The notes under the pieces: model-generated
Databases searched by the model: none
What the model was told of the DNA's origin: nothing
What the model saw: the letters and a program-made list of their open reading frames with translations, nothing else
Part shown: one piece after another, positions 12,113 through 43,029 of the stretch
How the letters are laid out: every line of letters starts with the position of its first letter
How positions within the stretch are numbered: the stretch's first letter is position 1
Made by a program: the position numbers and the translations under genes
DNA from: Naegleria gruberi
Taxonomy: Eukaryota
Assembly (NCBI GenBank): GCA_000004985.1
Contig: GG738860.1
DNA: 64,000 nt
Strand: one strand, 5' to 3'

Positions 12113-13696
12113 TTACCATTCATCATCTGAATCAGTATCAGAATCCTCTTCGTCATGGATACCAGTGTTAGAGAACTTTTTCATGAGATATGACTTGAAA
12201 CCTTCCTTTTCATTTTCTGTAAAATCAGTTACAGGTGGAGGTGTTGGATTCTTCAAATTGTCCTTAGAGAAAGTCTTGATTTCAGAAAGGAAGTCAGCAG
12301 GCTTTGATGGAAGAGGTGGCTTTGAGACTGGAGGGGAGGTTGGAGTGGCCTTTGGTTTGACCTCAACCTTAATTGGACCTCCTCCCATTGGTGGTGGTGG
12401 TGGAATAGCTCCAACAGGAGGTGGTGGTGGAATAGATCCTCCCATTGGGGGTGGTGGTGGTACAGCAAAACTTCCTCCTCCCATAGGTGGTGGTGGTGGT
12501 GGAATAGATCCCATTGAAACTGGTGGTGGAGGTGGAATACTACCTGCTCCTCCATCATAGTCATCTGAAACATATGAAGTCATTGGTGGAGGTGGTGGAA
12601 CTGATCCTCCCATTGGTGGAGGTGGAGGAACAGATCCCATAGATACAGGCATAGGTGGAGGTGGAGGAACACCACTGGATGGTGAAGAAACTCCAAAAGG
12701 TGGTGGAGGAGGTGGAACTCTTCCTGAAGATGCATCACTAGAGACTGTTCTAATCTCATCAACAATTTGATTGTCATCTTCATGTGCCTTTTGTCTTTGT
12801 TTGGCAACTTTCTTTTCATACTTGTGCATGAGTTTTTGGAGACGTTCTTGAGTCTTTGGATCATTAGCTTCAACACCCATACCTCCCAAAACGTCCAAGT
12901 ATTCAGTTGGAAGACCGCTAGCTTCAAATTGGCCAGTTTCATGATTGATACCAACGTGAGCAGTGTTTTGGAAATTCTTTACAGAGCCCATTCTAAAGTT
13001 TGATCTTGAAGGTCTATTGTCAACTGGTTCTTCGACTGGTTTGACTTCTTCCTTCTTCAAGAACTTATCCTTGACACCTCTAAAGAAACCAAAGACACCA
13101 CCTGCTGCCTTTTCTTCCTTCTTTGGTACAGGACTACTTGGAGAAGATGTTTGAGGGAGTGGATTCTTTGGCTTGTCATTGGATGGCTTACTGATTGATT
13201 CAGGAAGTGGTGGTGGATTACTTGTTGCATTTGATGATACACTAGTTGGTGGAGAAGCAGAGACAACATTAGAGAGACGGTTGTTAACAAAGCTGCTAAA
13301 CTTTGAAGCAGCAGTCTTACTATTCAAGGCAACATTGATACCAACAATTCTATCATCGCTTTCAAAGGAAATAAAATTGTCATTCAATTGTTCAAATTGG
13401 AATTGTTCATAACATTCATGAGACCAAGTAACTTGATTGGTTTCAACATTGATTAGTTTCAAACAAAAGACATTGTTCATCAAATCCTTTCCGAAATAAA
13501 GGGCTCCCCAAATACCAGTATAAGACCATTCTTCTTCACCTTGCATACTTTCATAGATTGAAACAACAGCGCTTTGTTCAACACTCTTTTAAAAATATTA
13601 AGCGAATGATAATTTTATAAATCAACCTACCAAACCCTTAGTGGCAGTGAGAACAACACTAACGTCCAAAGGATCATATAATTCCTTATTGCTCAT
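12113..13696 (-). CDS. WASP-family actin nucleation-promoting factor (WH1-CRIB-polyPro-WH2-acidic), 2 exons
   Basis: Exon 1 is about 13631-13696 ('[22 protein letters not shown]'), followed by a GTAGGT donor and a 45-nt intron. Exon 2 is 12113-13585. It has a WH1/EVH1 N-terminus. It has a CRIB motif ('[25 protein letters not shown]'). There are repeated 'GGGG[S/I]IPPPPP' poly-proline units. There is a WH2-like '[16 protein letters not shown]'. The acidic tail ends '...DSDDEW', the conserved Arp2/3-binding Trp. Confidence 0.85.
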
Positions 13697-14085
13697 TTTT
13701 CTATTTTTTTTAAAATTTGATATTTTTAATAACCTTGATCATCTTGGAACATGCTGATGATGACTATTAAGATATTAAACTTCGTAAGGGCATGGAACCT
13801 TGTTCACTTTTCAATCACGTCTCTTTCAATGCCAGGCAAAACTATTGTTGCACAAATAAATCTTAATATCTTTCACAACTTCCACTAGCATTTATTTTGC
13901 TGCCTGACAGACAACCTATCAACACTTTAATGATTGCCCTGACATTCATATAGCCTTAAAAAAATGAGCAACAGCCAACGAAAAAGTAAGCAATCAACAG
14001 CAGCAGCAGCTCCTCATCAGAAGCTTCTTCATCACAACAGCAACGGGATGAAAGTCTACTATTGTTAGCCTACGAGGGTGAGAAT

Positions 14086-15549
14086 ATGAAACGATATCCA
14101 ACAAGAAGAGCATCACAATTAGCAAATGAAGCCTTGGAAATTGATAAGACAGATGATGAAGGTTTGTTTTTTCATCAATTAGGAAATTAAATTGAAACTC
14201 TAATAGATTATATTGACGAGGAAGCAGCTTCATCTAGTGATTCCTTTGATGATGAGGAAACTCTTGAAGCTGACTATGAAAGTGATTCAGATTCACAGAA
14301 AGAAAAACCATCATCTAAACGTAAGTCACTCTGTCAAAATATCAATCAATATTAATTTCATTCGTTTACCTTATTAACAACAGGTTCTCAAATATCAAAA
14401 CCTGCTAGACATGTATTAATGTCATGGTTGGAGGAACACTTTGAGCATCCCTATCCTGATGATAACCAAAAAGAAGAATTGATGAAAAAGACCGGTCTCA
14501 CCATTAATCAAATTAATATTTGGTTTGTAAATTCAAGAATGAGAGTGTGGAAGCCTAGGCATCACGATTCACAAATTACCAAGACTGAACCAAATTCACC
14601 AAATGGAAATTCTGATGGTTCAGGAAGTAAGCCAAGACAAGAGAAGAAAATAGACATGTTGAATGATGAATTGAAATCATCACTTGCAGCTCGAATTAAT
14701 CCAAACAATGCCAATGTTACCAGGACAAATATTGTGGGAAGTTTGCCTAATGGTCTACCAACTCCATCCACAGTCATCTGTAGAGGAAACTTACCTAAAG
14801 AAGCTGTTGATTCATTGCTCAAGTGGTTATTCGATAACTTTAGTCATCCATATCCTTCAGATGCAGAGAAAGATGTATTGGCTGAAGAAACAAATCTTAC
14901 CTTAACACAAGTCAACAATTGGTTCATCAATGCAAGAAGGAGAATATGGAAACCAATTCTCCAAAAAATCAAATCAAAGGGAATGGATAAAGATGAACTC
15001 CTTTCTCAAGGAAAACTATCAGAAGTTGCCAAATCATTCTATAAGGACCAGAAAATTGGGGAAGAGGAACCAACAAAGAGGAAATCTAAAAGCTCCAAAG
15101 GAGGTTACAGCTCAGATCATGAAGAATCCACACCTAAAAAGCAAAAGAGGGACAACTCTCTCCTCATACCTCAAGACCTGATGACCCATACAGAGCCAAC
15201 CATTACAAGAGAATCAACGATCAAAACTAGACCAAAAATTGAAAATAACAAATTAACTCATAGAGAGCTATTCATTGATCAATACAGACTCTCAATGGAG
15301 AATCAAAAGCTTGAGGAAGATATTCATCAAGTCTATGACAGGTATGCCTCAGTTTTGGAAAATATCAGTGAAAAGAATGTGAAACTTCTCTCCCACATTA
15401 CCCTCCTCGAACAAAAGCAACAACAAATAAGATTGAATAATGAACTCTTGAAGAAAGAGGTTGATTTATTGAGAAGTAGTAAGGTGGTGAATTCTAATCC
15501 TTTCAACGTGGGTTCATTCCTCGTGGAAGAATTAGGATCTTCAATGTAA
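14086..15549 (+). CDS. TALE-class homeobox transcription factor with two homeodomains, 3 exons
   Basis: The exons are about 14086-14161, 14207-14320 and 14384-15549. The donors are GTTTGT and GTAAGT, and the boundaries are consistent with phase 1. Homeodomain 1 is '...HFEHPYPDDNQKEELMKKTGLTINQINIWFVNSRMRVWKP'. Homeodomain 2 is '...FSHPYPSDAEKDVLAEETNLTLTQVNNWFINARRRIWKP'. Both carry the three-residue TALE insertion (PYP) and the WF.N.R recognition helix. The C-terminus is coiled-coil-like. Confidence 0.85.
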
Positions 15550-15554
15550 ATTAT

Positions 15555-16268
15555 TTACAAATTTCTGCATGCAGTGACAACATCAGGATGATGCTCAAGG
15601 TAGTACTTTGAAGCAAAATCAATAAACTCACTTGTTGAACCAATTTCTTGATAGTTGTCACCATTTTCTAGAATGATATATGGTGACAAGAATTGTTGTG
15701 ACCATTTACTCCACACAGATTTAAATGGTTTGACAATCCACGAGCTATCAGTATCAATTTTACTCTTCAAATCTAAGACAGCATTGTAGAATTGTTCATG
15801 GTTTGGGTGTGATTGATAATTATTGGTTACTTTTGGTGAATAGTTTGGTAACTTTTCAGCAATACACTTGGCAATATTAAAGCTCTTGAAGCTATCTTGG
15901 TTTTCTGTATTTACATCTGCAATAATGTGAAAGATAGATTTACTGTTTGCCAATCTATCAGTCAGATATTTATCTTTTCCGAGATGACTATAAAATTCCT
16001 TTCTCTTGTAGAGGATAGATGGATTACTAAGTGATCGTTTGATGATGAGTTGATAAAAGATTATTTGAATAACAACGATCGCCAGAATAATCGATAGTTT
16101 AAATGTTCTGGATGAATTCCACAAATTATCCAATAAGCGGCTGAGAGGAGGAAGTGGTTTTTCCTTGTTGCTATTTGATAATGTTGCTGATTTTGAATAT
16201 GACGATTCCGAGAGGGGAATATCAGCAGAGTGAAGATGTGATCGTGAGTGTGTTTGTGGCAGAGTCAT
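15555..16268 (-). CDS. Hypothetical type II membrane protein (237 aa)
   Basis: Intact ORF with a Ser-rich N-terminus and a single TM segment ('LSIILAIVVIQIIFYQLII') followed by a luminal domain. Possibly a glycosyltransferase-like domain, but no family is assigned. Confidence 0.4.
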   Translation of the reverse strand: MTLPQTHSRSHLHSADIPLSESSYSKSATLSNSNKEKPLPPLSRLLDNLWNSSRTFKLSIILAIVVIQIIFYQLIIKRSLSNPSILYKRKEFYSHLGKDKYLTDRLANSKSIFHIIADVNTENQDSFKSFNIAKCIAEKLPNYSPKVTNNYQSHPNHEQFYNAVLDLKSKIDTDSSWIVKPFKSVWSKWSQQFLSPYIILENGDNYQEIGSTSEFIDFASKYYLEHHPDVVTACRNL

Positions 16269-16428
16269 TTTATTTATTTGTTTTATTTGTCTTTCTTATT
16301 AGGAGGTCACAACTTCAGTTTACAACATCTTTTTGGAAGCCAACTTGGAGTGATGCTGCAGTTTTTCAATCAACGTTTTCAATCCAGTTCCCATTTGCTG
16401 TTCGTATTGTTGCAAAATTAAGTTGTTG

Positions 16429-18015
16429 TTAACAAATATTTAATATAAATATGTGGTTAATATAAAAGAGGTAAAAGTTATTGAAAGTATGCTTAAAAAA
16501 ACTTACAACTTGATTTTGCAAACTGGAGAGGGCTGCAGGATCACAGTAAATAGCATCATGCTTAATGAGAGAATCTATTGAGACTATGGTTGGTTCATCT
16601 ATCTTTCCAGTTGTTGAAATATTTTCGATATTTCCTACACTGGTTGGGAAAATATCCTTAATGATCTTTTTGAATGAAGGATAAATGATTGTTTCAATGT
16701 AAATTTCTGTTGGTTGCCTAACACAAACACCGGTACACATTTCAAAAAGCAAATATCCAAAAGATTCCAAAATAGTTCTTGCATTATTGTTAAATGAATT
16801 TCTAGCAAAGAGTAAAAATTGATCTTCCAATGAAGTTAGTTTGCAGTGGTAGTGAACTCCATTTTCATTGTTTGATTTTTCAATTAGAATATTCTTGGAT
16901 GAGATGTGAGTGTATTCAAATCCAATTTGTGAAAGAGACTTTAAAGCACAAAGTATTTGTCCACTAAATTGACTAATAATGTCAGGATCCATAGTATTTT
17001 CTCTCCTTAATGTTTCAATAAGTTGAGATAGGGTTCCAACTGTATTATGCGAAAGATTGAAAAGAGAGTAGCACCTTCCTTGTCCCAATGAAAAATCGAT
17101 ATGAGAAACTGGCATAATGTATGGAGATAAATTTCCAATATTTGACATCAATTGAATAAAAGACCTTCTCATTGTGGCGTCATTAATCATTACTACTGAT
17201 TGACTGGAACAATTTGTATAAACCATCAGTCCAAAGTTGACTCCCACTGCTGTATTTGATTGTGATGAATTTGATTGTGGTAATGTCACAAAATTAGTAG
17301 AACTGTTAGCACTGTTTGAGCTTGAATTATCATCAAAATGTATATTCTTTGATCCTCTATTCTTAATAGTTTGACAATAAGCTAAGGTTTTGTAAGATGA
17401 AGCATTTAAGGTAAGCAATAATTGAAAGTAACTTGTAACAAAATCTTTCAGAGATTCCTTCTTCTCAATGAGTTCATAATCTGTTGGACGTAAGACGGTT
17501 CTAACTTGATACATTAAATCAATATGACCCAGCACTTTCTTTTGATATAAGCTCACATAATCGGTAATTTGTCTATTCAAATTATTATTCTTATACTTTT
17601 GAATGAGATTTGAAAAACCTTCCTTCAAAATATTTCCACTCGAATCATCTGTTGAAGATTTGTGATGATAATAAGAATTGGACAAGGGAATTGTCTCCTC
17701 ATCATCTGCTTCATTATTAATATTTGATGATTTCACTTTTCTAGTTGAAGAAATTCCAAAAACTTGTAAAACCGATTCCGAATTAATACCCGATTCATAA
17801 TATGAAGCCTCTCTTCTTCTCCTAGTTATTATTCTATAAAGAACCAATCCAACACAGGCAAAAAACACCAACACGACCACAATCATCGAGATGATAAATT
17901 CGGGCTTTAAAATAAATAAAACTTCATCTGTTTCCGCATTAGAAGTTGCCATCGTTGAAGTGGAGTCCACCATTAAGTTATTACTGTTCATTACTTTTAG
18001 AATTTGATCTAACAT
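16429..18015 (-). CDS. Single-pass membrane protein with a degenerate protein-kinase-like (pseudokinase) domain
   Basis: There is an N-terminal TM segment ('FIISMIVVVLVFFACVGLVLYRII' + RRRR). The C-terminal region has a kinase-like layout ('GQGRCY', 'HISSKNILI' in place of HRDLKPENIL, 'LTSLED' in place of DFG). The catalytic Asp is replaced, so it is probably inactive. The 3' end may instead splice at a GTAAGT near 16512 to a short terminal exon ending about 16380. Confidence 0.45.
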   Translation of the reverse strand: MLDQILKVMNSNNLMVDSTSTMATSNAETDEVLFILKPEFIISMIVVVLVFFACVGLVLYRIITRRRREASYYESGINSESVLQVFGISSTRKVKSSNINNEADDEETIPLSNSYYHHKSSTDDSSGNILKEGFSNLIQKYKNNNLNRQITDYVSLYQKKVLGHIDLMYQVRTVLRPTDYELIEKKESLKDFVTSYFQLLLTLNASSYKTLAYCQTIKNRGSKNIHFDDNSSSNSANSSTNFVTLPQSNSSQSNTAVGVNFGLMVYTNCSSQSVVMINDATMRRSFIQLMSNIGNLSPYIMPVSHIDFSLGQGRCYSLFNLSHNTVGTLSQLIETLRRENTMDPDIISQFSGQILCALKSLSQIGFEYTHISSKNILIEKSNNENGVHYHCKLTSLEDQFLLFARNSFNNNARTILESFGYLLFEMCTGVCVRQPTEIYIETIIYPSFKKIIKDIFPTSVGNIENISTTGKIDEPTIVSIDSLIKHDAIYCDPAALSSLQNQVVSFFKHTFNNFYLFYINHIFILNIC

Positions 18016-32896: not shown

Positions 32897-32977
32897 GTTG
32901 AGGTGGCCGAGTGGTTAAGGCGCCAGCCTGCTAAGTTGGTGGAGTAATCCGCGTGGGTTCGAATCCCATCCTCAACG
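32897..32977 (+). tRNA. tRNA-Ser (anticodon GCU)
   Basis: 81 nt. The acceptor stem is GTTGAGG/CCTCAAC with discriminator G. The D-arm is 'GCCGAGTGGTTAAGGC'. The anticodon stem-loop is CCAGC-CTGCTAA-GTTGG. There is a long class-II variable arm and a T-arm 'GTGGGTTCGAATCCCAT'. Confidence 0.85.
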
Positions 32978-33394: not shown

Positions 33395-33444
33395 NNNNNN
33401 NNNNNNNNNNNNNNNNNNNNNNNNNNNNNNNNNNNNNNNNNNNN
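33395..33444. other. Assembly gap (50 N)
   Basis: Run of n characters. Confidence 0.99.
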
Positions 33445-41967: not shown

Positions 41968-43029
41968 TTACAATAATTTCAAATGTTTTGTAACAGTATC
42001 AATTAATTCTACAGGAGCTGGACCAATTCCAAGTACTGTTTTCGATCCAGCTTCAATTTGAGTTCTTCCAGCATCAACAACAAGATAACAATTCAAACGT
42101 TGTTGTAAACATTTTTGAAATAAATTATCCAATTCCTTATCACTATCTGCTTTAAGACAAATCTTAGCTTCAGCTGTTACTTCCCAGTCATGTAAATATT
42201 GTTTCCATTGTTGCATATCTTGGTTGGTGATTTGTGTTGGCTCTGAATTTGATGATGAAAATAATAATTGAGTTTGAGCAAAATAGGAGGTGTTTTCATA
42301 GAGAATATTTCTATAGAGACCGACAGCTGCATGACAACATTGAGCAGCAATCTTTCCTTTACCCATATTCAAATCATTTCTAACAACAAATACCATCTTG
42401 TAAGCCTTTGATGTCGGGAATGATTTCATCAAATATTCTTGATATTTTTGATNNNNNNNNNNNNNNNNNNNNNNNNNNNNNNNNNNNNNNNNNNNNNNNN
42501 NNNNNNNNNNNNNNNNNNNNNNNNNNNNNNNNNNNNNNNNNNNNNNNNNNNNNNNNNNNNNNNNNNNNNNNNNNNNNNNNNNNNNNNNNNNNNNNNNNNN
42601 NNNNNNNNNNNNNNNNNNNNNNNNNNNNNNNNNNNNNNNNNNNNNNNNNNNNNNNNNNNNNNNNNNNNNNNNNNNNNNNNNNNNNNNNNNNNNNNNNNNN
42701 NNNNNNNNNNNNNNNNNNNNNNNNNNNNNNNNNNNNNNNNNNNNNNNNNNNNNNNNNNNNNNNNNNNNNNNNNNNNNNNNNNNNNNNNNNNNNNNNNNNN
42801 NNNNNNNNNNNNNNNNNNNNNNNNNNNNNNNNNNNNNNNNNNNNNNNNNNNNNNNNNNNNNNNNNNNNNNNNNNNNNNNNNNNNNNNNNNNNNNNNNNNN
42901 NNNNNNNNNNNNNNNNNNNNNNNNNNNNNNNNNNNNNNNNNNNTGTGTTCTTGTGATGACATTTTTTAATGAGTTGGAATTATTTTGAAAATAATCACAT
43001 GAGGAATAAATTGCAGAATTGAACATCAA
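41968..43029 (-). CDS. PTRH2: Peptidyl-tRNA hydrolase 2 (PTH2/PTRH2), interrupted by an assembly gap
   Basis: The C-terminal 150 aa are 'KMVFVVRNDLNMGKGKIAAQCCHAAVGLY...GRTQIEAGSKTVLGIGPAPVELIDTVTKHLKLL*', the canonical PTH2 fold and C-terminus. The N-terminal 27 aa are upstream of the gap. The middle is poly-N. Confidence 0.75.
   Translation of the reverse strand: MMFNSAIYSSCDYFQNNSNSLKNVITRTXXXXXXXXXXXXXXXXXXXXXXXXXXXXXXXXXXXXXXXXXXXXXXXXXXXXXXXXXXXXXXXXXXXXXXXXXXXXXXXXXXXXXXXXXXXXXXXXXXXXXXXXXXXXXXXXXXXXXXXXXXXXXXXXXXXXXXXXXXXXXXXXXXXXXXXXXXXXXXXXXXXXXQKYQEYLMKSFPTSKAYKMVFVVRNDLNMGKGKIAAQCCHAAVGLYRNILYENTSYFAQTQLLFSSSNSEPTQITNQDMQQWKQYLHDWEVTAEAKICLKADSDKELDNLFQKCLQQRLNCYLVVDAGRTQIEAGSKTVLGIGPAPVELIDTVTKHLKLL
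42453..42943. other. Assembly gap (about 490 N) inside the PTH2 gene
   Basis: Run of n characters. Confidence 0.99.

What the first reader, a model, noticed from the sequence alone, without database searches (positions are those of the whole stretch)
14086..15549. TALE homeobox gene with two tandem TALE homeodomains in one polypeptide
Both homeodomains carry the three-residue loop insertion (HPYP) and the WF(V/I)N(S/A)R recognition helix. They are separated by about 80 aa and followed by a coiled-coil region. Most TALE proteins (MEIS/PBC/KNOX/BELL) have a single homeodomain. A double-TALE protein could bind composite sites by itself, which are normally recognised by TALE heterodimers.
Basis: seen in the sequence. 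Interest (0 to 1): 0.5.

Follow-up and report, generated by a model that had tools for sequence, protein, structure and literature searches.

The report
Naegleria-type gene with two TALE homeodomains
This is a real gene of a Naegleria-like amoeba encoding a DNA-binding regulator with two TALE homeodomains and a dimerising coiled coil; the design is conserved across its phylum (Heterolobosea), but similar multi-homeodomain TALE proteins are already known elsewhere, so it is a modest novelty.

Summary
The three-exon model (14086-14161, 14207-14320, 14384-15549, + strand) reads through in frame to a 451-aa protein. Each half passes Pfam Homeobox_KN on its own (71 and 78 bits; cut-off 24).

- **Gene model:** both introns sit at the same positions as in the annotated Naegleria fowleri and Willaertia magna orthologues. 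The N. fowleri orthologue also has the same upstream neighbour, a WASP-like gene. The true start is probably upstream of 14086.
- **Conservation:** HD1 always reads WFVN(A/S)R(V/I/M)R and HD2 always WFINARRR. This holds in Naegleria, in two Willaertia paralogues, in a Pharyngomonas transcript and in several metagenomic proteins, so the design predates the basal split of Heterolobosea.
- **Class:** both domains are MEIS-like. HD1 is not PBC-like, and no MEINOX, PBC, KNOX or BELL partner domain is present.
- **Other parts:** a 29-aa peptide before HD2 is invariant across genera. An ~80-residue leucine-zipper-like helix with an invariant core Asn lies near the C-terminus.

The most likely mechanism is a dimeric factor with several homeodomains that reads clustered TGACA-type sites. 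This is inferred, not shown.

Multi-homeodomain TALE proteins are already published for spiralian SPILE-B and Marchantia BELL2-4. I also found them in oomycete and ichthyosporean proteins. I rate this a new variant of a known kind, of moderate interest.

The parts
13964..13985 (+). Candidate true first exon (ATG AGC AAC AGC CAA CGA AAA A), uncertain
   Evidence: It encodes MSNSQRK, which resembles the N. fowleri and N. lovaniensis N-termini MNKRKAEKRK and MNRRKAEKRK. It joins frame 0 only if a 35- or 38-nt GT..AG intron is removed.
13986..14020 (+). Candidate 35-nt mini-intron (GTAAGC...CATCAG; alternative acceptor at 14023), uncertain
Evidence: Removing it gives MSNSQRKKASSSQQQRDESLLLLAYEGENMKRYP..., a 480-aa protein. 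It is shorter than the six verified introns of this gene family, which are 45-63 nt.
14086..14161 (+).
   Evidence: In frame with exons 2 and 3.
14162..14206 (+). Intron 1, 45 nt, GT..AG
   Evidence: N. fowleri has a 54-nt intron at the homologous protein position.
14207..14320 (+). Exon 2: acidic, serine-rich region and the first residue of the HD1 arm
14321..14383 (+). Intron 2, 63 nt, GT..AG; splits the KR of the HD1 N-terminal arm
   Evidence: There are introns at the same position in N. fowleri (59 nt) and Willaertia (51 nt).
14384..15549 (+). Exon 3: the rest of HD1 through to the stop codon (TAA at 15547-15549)
14317..14559 (+). HD1 (aa 63-122, interrupted by intron 2): TALE homeodomain with the recognition helix WFVNSRMRVWKP
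   Evidence: Pfam Homeobox_KN 71.2 bits when scanned alone. Best solved relatives are MEIS1/2 at 58 bits, ahead of PBX1 at 48. AlphaFold2 pLDDT is 88-97.
14560..14691 (+). Variable spacer (aa 123-166), predicted disordered
   Evidence: Not conserved in sequence or length among orthologues. pLDDT below 50.
14692..14778 (+). Invariant 29-aa peptide RINPNNANVTRTNIVGSLPNGLPTPSTVI directly before HD2; function unknown
   Evidence: Identical in the window, N. fowleri, N. lovaniensis and Willaertia P0004, and all but two residues in P0005. Over 36 codons (the peptide plus the first seven codons of HD2), 17-20 third positions differ but only 0-1 second positions, so selection acts on the protein. pLDDT below 50.
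14779..14958 (+). HD2 (aa 196-255): MEIS/PKNOX-like TALE homeodomain with the recognition helix NNWFINARRRIWKP
   Evidence: Pfam Homeobox_KN 78 bits when scanned alone. Matches PKNOX1 at E 3e-17 and MEIS2 at E 6e-17. Foldseek TM-score 0.93-0.95 and rmsd 0.7-1.2 Å to MEIS1.
14959..15054 (+). Helical extension of HD2 (aa 256-287), specific to this orthologue group
   Evidence: AlphaFold2 extends helix 3 and adds two short helices at pLDDT about 95. Conserved in N. fowleri, N. lovaniensis, Willaertia and P0005.
15055..15246 (+). Disordered basic region with lysine-rich stretches that look like nuclear localisation signals (KRKSKSSK, PKKQKR)
   Evidence: pLDDT below 50. A K-rich block is aligned across the family. 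The nuclear-localisation role is inferred.
15247..15492 (+). Leucine-zipper-like coiled coil (aa 352-433) with core Asn370 (invariant), Asn395 and Asn416
   Evidence: A single 82-residue helix at pLDDT about 97. Hydrophobic periodicity peaks at 3.5 residues. N370 is invariant in 17 of 17 family members.
15514..15546 (+). Conserved C-terminal motif SFLVEELGSSM
   Evidence: YFLIEDLCSSL in N. fowleri and N. lovaniensis, FLIQELG in P0005, HLIESLGA in P0008. Function unknown.

Best explanation
The locus is a genuine protein-coding gene of a Naegleria-type heterolobosean. It encodes a sequence-specific transcription factor of the TALE superclass.

**Layout.** An acidic N-terminus is followed by HD1 and a 73-aa spacer. 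The spacer's last 29 residues are an invariant peptide. Then come HD2 with a helical extension, a basic disordered region, a leucine-zipper-like coiled coil of about 80 residues, and a short C-terminal motif.

**Proposed mechanism (inferred).**
- HD2 has a recognition helix identical to MEIS/PKNOX (NNWFINARRRI). It is the main DNA reader and should recognise a TGACA-type core.
- HD1 keeps R5, W48, F49, N51, R53 and R55, but has V50 and a hydrophobic residue 54. It would be a second, faster-evolving DNA reader with a related but shifted preference.
- The long flexible spacer would let the two domains occupy two half-sites with loose spacing.
- The zipper, with its conserved core Asn residues, would pair the protein with itself or with single-homeodomain paralogues that share the zipper. 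A complex would then carry two to four homeodomains and bind clustered sites by avidity.
- On this reading the zipper, not a MEINOX or PBC domain, provides partner choice.

**Origin (inferred).** An internal duplication of the homeodomain occurred in an ancestral heterolobosean TALE-zipper gene. HD1 later decayed or was lost in some paralogues.

**Shown versus inferred.** Shown: gene structure, the two TALE folds, conservation, the zipper periodicity, and the absence of the known partner domains. Inferred: DNA targets, dimerisation and biological role.
For: **Two TALE domains above threshold.**

**Solved relatives.** MEIS, PKNOX and TGIF are the closest solved structures for both domains.

**Structure prediction.**
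- Both homeodomains have pLDDT above 90.
- The spacer is predicted disordered.
- The C-terminal helix has pLDDT about 97.

**One gene.**
- A single ORF covers both domains.
- Intron positions are conserved.
- The upstream WH1+PBD (WASP-like) gene is the same in N. fowleri.

**Conserved architecture.**
- The two-domain layout, with HD1 = WFVN.. and HD2 = WFINARRR, is found in N. fowleri, N. lovaniensis, Willaertia (two paralogues), Pharyngomonas kirbyi and the metagenomic proteins P0005, P0008, P0125 and P0126.
- Pharyngomonada and Tetramitia are the two primary clades of Heterolobosea.

**Zipper.** Heptad periodicity and the invariant Asn370 are seen across 17 family members, including single-homeodomain ones.

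**HD1 decay.** Degenerate HD1 relics occur in P0240 and P0223. Their HD2 groups with a single-homeodomain Acrasis protein at 76% bootstrap.

**No partner domain.** No MEINOX, PBC, KNOX or POX domain appears at E <= 1.
Against: - There are no expression, DNA-binding or oligomerisation data for any member of this family.
- HD1 evolves faster than HD2 (mean identity 57% against 71%). Its position 47 varies (I, T or N) within Naegleriidae, which could mean relaxed or non-DNA function.
- The 61-column neighbour-joining tree does not resolve whether HD1 and HD2 are each other's closest relatives.
- The purpose of the invariant 29-aa peptide is not explained by this model.
- The TGACAG hexamer is not enriched in the window: 27 observed against 38 expected. 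With 64 kb, this says little either way.
Confidence: 0.62

Rival explanations
1. HD1 is not a DNA reader. It would be a diverged homeodomain fold used for protein contacts or for auto-regulating HD2. The protein would then behave as a single-homeodomain MEIS-like factor with an accessory module.
For: - HD1 is less conserved than HD2 (57% against 71% mean identity).
- In the Naegleria lineage HD1 has unusual residues at positions 47, 52 and 54 (I/T47, S52, M/I54).
- In some relatives the HD1 position has decayed to a relic lacking W48, F49 and N51 (P0240, P0223).
- Many family members work with HD2 alone (P0009-P0019).
Against: - In every intact two-homeodomain member HD1 keeps W48, F49, N51, R53 and R55, and usually a basic residue at position 5. 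These are the canonical DNA-contact residues.
- HD1 scores 71 bits against the TALE profile.
- This conservation spans the deepest split of Heterolobosea.
Confidence: 0.22
2. The protein is a single-chain TALE dyad. HD1 would descend from the PBC/BELL-type partner and HD2 from the MEIS/KNOX-type partner of the ancestral TALE heterodimer, fused into one polypeptide. It would read composite sites without a partner, which is the reader's idea in its strongest form.
For: - Residue 54 is hydrophobic in HD1, as in PBX (I) and BELL (V). It is Arg in HD2, as in MEIS and TGIF.
- The protein lacks both the MEINOX and the PBC dimerisation domains.
- In the first structure-database search PBX appeared as the best match of HD1.
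Against: - The PBX result was an effect of reporting only one stretch per chain. HD1 alone matches MEIS (58 bits) and PKNOX (56) better than PBX (48).
- Mean identity of HD1 to BELL, MEIS and PBX is 52%, 50% and 45%, against 54% to HD2, with no resolved grouping.
- According to Joo et al. 2018 (PMC6219170), N. gruberi has separate TALE genes with PBC-type and MEIS/KNOX-type homology domains. The ordinary dyad therefore exists alongside this family.
Confidence: 0.08
3. The two-domain protein is an artefact: two adjacent single-homeodomain genes wrongly merged, or a pseudogene.
For: - There is no transcript evidence for this organism.
- The 5' end is unsettled. A frame change between 13964 and 14086 needs either a very short intron or a frameshift.
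Against: - One uninterrupted ORF (14419-15549) runs from helix 1 of HD1 through HD2 to the stop.
- The spacer contains a peptide under strong purifying selection.
- The same arrangement is seen in at least four genera and in a transcript assembly of Pharyngomonas.
- A 99%-identical copy in an environmental assembly keeps the same ORF.
Confidence: 0.03

Closest known systems
MEIS/PKNOX (PREP) and TGIF homeodomains (animal TALE classes)
   Same: - HD2 is 53-58% identical to them, with an identical recognition helix NNWFINARRRI and the same loop length.
- The predicted fold superposes on MEIS1 at TM-score 0.93-0.95.
- HD1 is also closest to MEIS among solved structures.
   Different: - There is no MEINOX (Meis_PKNOX_N) domain.
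- There are two homeodomains instead of one.
- There is a C-terminal zipper.
- The domains carry a WKP tail after helix 3, as in plant BELL and KNOX, rather than IVQP.
Spiralian SPILE clade-B TALE genes (two homeodomains; PMC8524836, PMC6118893)
   Same: A TALE-superclass protein with two homeodomains in one polypeptide, conserved within one lineage.
   Different: - SPILE-B genes are restricted to animals (spiralians). They carry a modified PADRE domain and are described as blastomere-specification genes.
- There is no evidence of common descent with the heterolobosean family, which has its own zipper and spacer peptide.
- I did not compare sequences directly.
Marchantia polymorpha MpBELL2/3/4 (BELL-class genes with two or three homeodomains; PMC8476127)
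   Same: - Several TALE homeodomains in one gene.
- The recognition helix and WKP tail are very similar to BELL (WFINARVRLWKP against HD1 WFVNARVRIWKP in Willaertia and Pharyngomonas). BELL proteins were also the best-scoring single-homeodomain hits of the profile search.
   Different: - No POX/SKY-BELL domain is detected here.
- The lineage is different.
- The Marchantia proteins act with KNOX partners in the gamete-to-zygote transition, and nothing comparable is known here.
DUX4 double homeodomain (PRD class)
   Same: Two homeodomains in tandem on one chain that read two adjacent half-sites. DUX4 double-homeodomain structures were the top Foldseek matches spanning both domains.
   Different: - DUX4 homeodomains are PRD class, without the TALE loop.
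- They are joined by a short linker that fixes the geometry.
- Here the spacer is 73 aa and disordered. The relative orientation is undefined (pTM 0.32 and rmsd 15-22 Å over both domains).
Plant HD-Zip proteins
   Same: A homeodomain combined with a leucine-zipper dimerisation helix, implying DNA binding as a dimer.
   Different: - In HD-Zip proteins the zipper abuts helix 3, so the dimer reads a pseudopalindrome.
- Here the zipper lies about 97 residues downstream, across a disordered basic region.
- The homeodomains here are TALE type.
Multi-TALE proteins of other protists found here (Aphanomyces P0214, Sphaeroforma P0129, Chromosphaera P0131)
   Same: Two to four TALE homeodomains per predicted protein.
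   Different: - The homeodomain subtypes differ. The oomycete ones, for example, have two extra residues before the HPYP loop (WMLSPEHVKHPYP).
- None has the heterolobosean spacer peptide.
- They are uncharacterised, and some database entries of this kind look like assembly or annotation duplications (P0124, P0215, P0244, P0256).

Membership tests
TALE superclass homeodomain (Pfam Homeobox_KN, PF05920) | Profile match above the curated threshold, for each domain separately | tested here: met
   HD1 scores 71.2 bits and HD2 78.0 bits; the cut-off is 24.
TALE superclass homeodomain (Pfam Homeobox_KN, PF05920) | Three extra residues in the loop between helix 1 and helix 2 | tested here: met
   Both domains align without gaps through the loop to MEIS1/2 and PKNOX1. 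Matches to non-TALE homeodomains (yeast a1, Paired) cover three more residues in the query than in the target.
TALE superclass homeodomain (Pfam Homeobox_KN, PF05920) | Three-helix homeodomain fold with W48, F49, N51 and R53 | tested here: met
   AlphaFold2 pLDDT is above 90 for both domains. Foldseek TM-score to MEIS1 is 0.93-0.95. The residues are invariant in the alignment of eight two-homeodomain proteins.
MEIS/PKNOX (MEINOX) class | N-terminal MEINOX / Meis_PKNOX_N domain (PF16493) that binds PBC partners | tested here: not met
   No Pfam hit other than the homeodomain families at E <= 1 on the 451-aa protein. The animal MEIS and PKNOX hits all carry PF16493; the heterolobosean proteins do not.
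MEIS/PKNOX (MEINOX) class | Recognition helix with I50 and R54 (WFINARRR) | tested here: met
   Met by HD2 only. HD1 has V50 and M54.
PBC class (PBX/Exd) | PBC-A/B domain and a G50 recognition helix (WFGNKRIRYKK) | tested here: not met
   No PBC domain is detected. HD1 has V50 and HD2 has I50. HD1 scores lower against PBX1 (48 bits) than against MEIS (58 bits).
BELL class (plants) | POX (SKY + BELL) domain upstream of the homeodomain | tested here: not met
   No PF07526 hit, whereas the plant BELL hit P0025 carries it. Only the homeodomain resembles BELL: 52-59% identity and the WKP tail.
KNOX class (plants) | KNOX1/KNOX2 (MEINOX) and ELK domains; helix WFINQRKRHWKP | tested here: not met
   No such Pfam hits. 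Identity to a KNOX homeodomain is 48-49%.
Spiralian SPILE-B double-homeodomain TALE | Two homeodomains plus a modified PADRE domain; spiralian orthology | not tested
   The two-homeodomain feature is shared. PADRE and orthology were not compared because no SPILE sequences were fetched. The taxonomic distance makes independent origin the default (inference).
Heterolobosean TALE-zipper family (defined here) | A MEIS-like homeodomain (WFINARRR.W[KR]P), then a basic region, then a C-terminal coiled coil containing the invariant EN..L motif | tested here: met
   Shared by 17 aligned proteins from Naegleria, Willaertia, Acrasis, Pharyngomonas and metagenomes. N370 is invariant.
Heterolobosean TALE-zipper family, two-homeodomain subgroup (defined here) | An additional N-terminal homeodomain with V50 (WFVN[AS]R[VIM]R), 120-144 residues upstream of the HD2 helix | tested here: met
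   The distance between the two WF motifs is 133 residues in the window and 120-144 in P0002-P0008. Every HD1 has V50.

The most novel reading that the evidence does not exclude
The heterolobosean two-homeodomain proteins could be a covalent version of the ancient TALE heterodimer. HD1 would be the descendant of the BELL/PBC-type partner (hydrophobic residue 54) and HD2 that of the MEIS/KNOX-type partner (Arg54). The invariant 29-aa peptide and the zipper would replace the lost MEINOX/PBC interface. If so, a deep-branching eukaryote lineage solved composite-site recognition by fusion. That would give a natural single-chain model for how TALE dyads read DNA, and a new data point on the ancestral TALE pair.
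Probability: 0.08. Interest if true: 0.65.

Novelty: new variant of a known kind. Interest (0 to 1): 0.4.

Why it matters
TALE homeodomain proteins are best known as obligate heterodimer partners: MEIS-PBX, KNOX-BELL and the yeast mating-type pairs. That heterodimer has been proposed as an ancestral eukaryotic device for sensing gamete fusion (PMC6219170, PMC8476127). Heterolobosea branch far from animals and plants, and all 12 homeobox genes reported for Naegleria gruberi are TALE.

A conserved family in this phylum puts two TALE domains on one chain and uses a zipper instead of the MEINOX/PBC interface. This shows a different way of building multivalent TALE complexes. It also offers a compact system for asking how tandem TALE domains choose sites. 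The invariant spacer peptide is a defined, testable element of unknown function.

The practical importance is modest. The architecture has precedents, orthologues already sit in public databases as "hypothetical protein", and nothing is known about the biology.

Tried and rejected
1. **HD1 as a PBC-class domain.** This was suggested by the first structure-database search. I rejected it when HD1 searched alone matched MEIS and PKNOX better, and when the identity table showed no class preference.
2. **Homeodomain phylogeny.** A Biopython bootstrap run timed out. My own neighbour-joining run (500 bootstraps, 61 columns, 63 domains) left all deep nodes unresolved. The origin of HD1 by duplication versus fusion is therefore not settled.
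3. **The 'stretches' column of the profile search.** It cannot be read as the number of homeodomains, because one homeodomain can match both halves of the profile. I recounted the domains with a dedicated HMM.
4. **Exact look-ups of window proteins.** None is in the 15-billion-protein collection, so the source genome could not be named that way.
5. **The 99%-identical environmental contig (L001).** It ends just inside exon 1, so it could not resolve the 5' end.
6. **Structure prediction of the spliced 451-aa protein.** The exon-3 translation (387 aa) was used instead.
7. **TGACAG sites.** They are not enriched in the window, and the single site at 13905 upstream of the gene is not significant.
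8. **A missed HD1 exon upstream of the N. fowleri single-homeodomain paralogue P0011.** None is present.
9. **Literature.** I found no paper describing a two-homeodomain TALE in Naegleria or Heterolobosea. The N. fowleri transcriptome paper mentions only mouse homeobox genes.
Full report
**1. What is at the locus**

The window is AT-rich (about 34% G+C), densely packed with ORFs on both strands, and has short GT..AG introns. The introns are 45 and 63 nt.

Pfam finds two Homeobox_KN stretches. Scanned separately, HD1 scores 71.2 bits and HD2 78.0 bits against a cut-off of 24. Nothing else in the protein matches at E <= 1.

**2. Organism and orthology**

The best database relatives are heterolobosean proteins:

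| Protein | Source | Length | Identity / coverage |
|---|---|---|---|
| P0002 | Naegleria fowleri | 549 aa | 45% over 94% |
| P0003 | N. lovaniensis | 519 aa | 46% over 88% |
| P0004, P0007 | Willaertia magna | 569 and 450 aa | 44% over 82%; 43% over 44% |
| P0006 | Pharyngomonas kirbyi transcript assembly | 452 aa | 45% over 43% |
| several | Acrasis kona | various | one homeodomain only |

- In N. fowleri the gene has the same upstream neighbour on the opposite strand as in the window (12113-13546). This is a WH1+PBD, WASP-like gene.
- An environmental assembly holds a 99%-identical copy of the large ORF (P0001/L001).
- No exact window protein is in the 15-billion-protein collection.
- I conclude that the window comes from a Naegleria species other than N. 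fowleri or N. lovaniensis. That it is N. gruberi-like is inference only.

**3. Gene model**

- Exact mapping of the annotated N. fowleri and Willaertia proteins onto their loci shows introns at the protein positions homologous to the window's intron 2. N. fowleri also has one at intron 1.
- Intron 2 splits the Lys-Arg of the HD1 N-terminal arm. Without splicing, the ORF starts only at MSWLEEH inside helix 1.
- The start codon is doubtful. The BLASTP alignment to N. fowleri continues upstream of Met1 (QRDESLLLL against KRDESHLLL). That frame has no ATG before 14086.
- An ATG at 13964 (MSNSQRK.., compare MNKRKAEKRK in N. fowleri) can be joined by removing a 35- or 38-nt GT..AG segment, giving 480 or 479 aa. 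Such an intron would be shorter than the six verified ones (45-63 nt), so this remains a hypothesis. A lineage-specific frameshift with re-initiation at 14086 is the alternative.

**4. Anatomy of the protein (451-aa numbering)**

| Part | Residues | Notes |
|---|---|---|
| Acidic, Ser-rich N-terminus | 1-62 | |
| HD1 | 63-122 | helix 3 reads WFVNSRMRVWKP |
| Variable spacer | 123-166 | predicted disordered |
| Invariant peptide | 167-195 | RINPNNANVTRTNIVGSLPNGLPTPSTVI |
| HD2 | 196-255 | helix 3 reads NNWFINARRRIWKP |
| Helical extension of HD2 | 256-287 | pLDDT about 95 |
| Basic disordered region | 288-351 | KRKSKSSK, PKKQKR |
| Long helix (coiled coil) | 352-433 | pLDDT about 97 |
| C-terminal motif | 441-451 | SFLVEELGSSM |

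- AlphaFold2 on the exon-3 translation gave pLDDT above 90 for both homeodomains. pTM was 0.32, meaning there is no fixed arrangement between the domains.
- Foldseek superposes a homeodomain on MEIS1 at TM-score 0.93-0.95. It lists DUX4 double-homeodomain structures as the only solved chains covering both domains, but with large rmsd.
- Across 17 family members the C-terminal helix shows a clear 3.5-residue hydrophobic periodicity. Core-position Asn370 is invariant in 17 of 17, and Asn395 and Asn416 are frequent. From general knowledge of leucine zippers such as GCN4 Asn16, buried Asn residues favour in-register parallel dimers. Dimerisation here is inferred.
- The 29-aa peptide is identical in Naegleria and Willaertia, although 17-20 of 36 third codon positions differ and only 0-1 second positions do. 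Selection therefore acts on the peptide, not on the DNA. Its role is unexplained.

**5. Class of the two homeodomains**

- In the full-length search PBX seemed to be HD1's best solved relative. That was because only one stretch is reported per chain.
- HD1 alone matches MEIS1/2 (58 bits) and PKNOX1 (56) better than PBX1 or Exd (48).
- HD1 and HD2 of the window are 47% identical.
- Mean identity of HD1 to HD2, BELL, MEIS, TGIF, KNOX and PBX is 54, 52, 50, 49, 49 and 45%.
- Mean identity of HD2 to the heterolobosean single-homeodomain proteins is 70%. Its identity to TGIF, BELL, MEIS, KNOX and PBX is 60, 59, 56, 48 and 45%. The neighbour-joining tree is unresolved at depth.
- Both domains keep R5, W48, F49, N51, R53 and R55.
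- HD2's helix is identical to MEIS/PKNOX. From established knowledge of MEIS, PREP and TGIF, this predicts a TGACA-type core. HD1 differs at positions 50 (Val) and 54 (Met, Ile or Val).
- No MEINOX, PBC, KNOX/ELK or POX domain is present. The protein belongs to the TALE superclass but to none of the named classes.

**6. Conservation and history**

- Every two-homeodomain relative has HD1 = WFVN(A/S)R(V/I/M)R and HD2 = WFINARRR. The two helices lie 120-144 residues apart. P0125 is the exception, with only 13 residues between the domains.
- The arrangement occurs in Pharyngomonada and in Tetramitia, the two primary clades of Heterolobosea. It is therefore ancient in the phylum. The Pharyngomonas sequence comes from a transcript assembly, so the two domains are co-transcribed there.
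- Many family members have only HD2 plus the zipper (P0009-P0019).
- P0240 and P0223 carry a decayed HD1 relic. Their HD2 groups with a single-homeodomain Acrasis protein at 76% bootstrap.
- N. fowleri P0011 has one homeodomain and no hidden HD1 exon. Even so, it groups at 93% with the HD2 of the Willaertia two-homeodomain paralogue P0007.
- The simplest reading is an ancestral TALE-zipper gene that duplicated its homeodomain early, with repeated later loss of HD1. This is inference.

**7. How unusual is it?**

- A profile search of 1.84 billion representative proteins gave 13,657 TALE-like hits. Recounting domains with a dedicated HMM found 56 proteins with two to nine TALE-like homeodomains among the 260 proteins retrieved in the two searches.
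- Named examples are Aphanomyces (two domains), Sphaeroforma (three) and Chromosphaera (four). A few entries are obviously duplicated-exon artefacts.
- The literature already describes two homeodomains in spiralian SPILE-B genes (PMC8524836, PMC6118893). It also describes two or three in Marchantia BELL2/3/4 (PMC8476127).
- Joo et al. 2018 counted 12 homeobox genes in N. gruberi, all TALE. They discussed one PBC-like and one MEIS-like gene but did not mention a two-homeodomain gene.
- I found no paper on this heterolobosean family. Its orthologues are public but annotated only as hypothetical or "homeobox domain-containing" proteins.

**8. Mechanism and verdict**

- *Most likely (confidence about 0.6):* a nuclear, sequence-specific regulator that dimerises through the zipper with itself or with single-homeodomain paralogues. 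It would present two to four TALE domains on flexible tethers, binding clustered TGACA-like sites by avidity. HD2 would be the main reader and HD1 an auxiliary reader.
- *Rivals:* HD1 as a non-DNA module (0.22); a fused PBC/BELL + MEIS/KNOX dyad (0.08); an annotation artefact (0.03).
The functional idea is plausible but untested and not specifically favoured. The claim of rarity is overstated.
- *Novelty and interest:* a new variant of a known kind; interest about 0.4.

Noticed in passing
They can be joined only by a 35/38-nt GT..AG segment (13986-14020/14023) or by assuming a frameshift.
   Followed up: partly
window 14692-14778: A 29-aa peptide (RINPNNANVTRTNIVGSLPNGLPTPSTVI) is absolutely conserved between Naegleria and Willaertia while synonymous sites are saturated. 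It is more conserved than the homeodomains themselves. It is predicted disordered and matches no known motif.
   Followed up: partly
window 15514-15546: The C-terminal motif SFLVEELGSSM (FLIEDLCSSL in N. fowleri) loosely resembles the eh1 Groucho-binding consensus FS[VI]xx[IL][LM]. Copley 2016 (PMC4943189) reported Tup- and Groucho-like proteins in N. gruberi but found no eh1 motifs in its transcription factors. The Phe is not conserved in more distant relatives (HLIESLG, LCIEALG), so the resemblance is weak.
   Followed up: no
window 12113-13546 (- strand): A WASP-like gene (WH1 + PBD/CRIB domains) with a long proline-rich region built from imperfect 27-36-nt tandem repeats (12380-12637). It lies in conserved divergent synteny with the TALE gene in N. 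fowleri.
   Followed up: partly
window 33395-33444 and 42453-42943: Runs of N (50 and 491 bases), i.e. assembly gaps. The second one explains the apparent low-G+C block at 42-44 kb and interrupts the ORF carrying a PTH2 peptidyl-tRNA hydrolase domain (41968-43029, - strand).
   Followed up: yes
window 32897-32977 (+): A single tRNA-Ser (GCT) gene, found by both ARAGORN and Rfam. It is the only RNA family hit in the window.
   Followed up: yes
L001 (ENA ERZ929261, contig k127_273339): An environmental metagenome assembly contains a 2.4-kb contig 99% identical to window ~14102-16500, including both introns. The same or a very closely related Naegleria was therefore present in that sample.
   Followed up: partly
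proteins P0121-P0123, P0161, P0189, P0193, P0198, P0207 (no loci): Unnamed predicted proteins from metagenome or run assemblies carry four to nine tandem TALE-like homeodomains of one repeated type (..LKKWYDEHESHPYPTKEEK..). The source organisms are unknown. These would be the most extreme multi-TALE arrays.
   Followed up: no
proteins P0125, P0240, P0223: Variants of the heterolobosean family. P0125 has only 13 residues between HD1 and HD2, which would force adjacent half-sites. P0240 and P0223 keep a decayed HD1 relic lacking the PYP loop, W48/F49 and N51.
   Followed up: partly
window, several single-exon ORFs (12113-13546, 15555-16268, 16429-18015): None of these exact protein sequences is in the 15-billion-protein collection, although N. 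fowleri, N. lovaniensis, Willaertia and Acrasis proteins are. No hit was labelled N. gruberi even among the paralogues. The source genome seems to be absent from the collection.
   Followed up: partly
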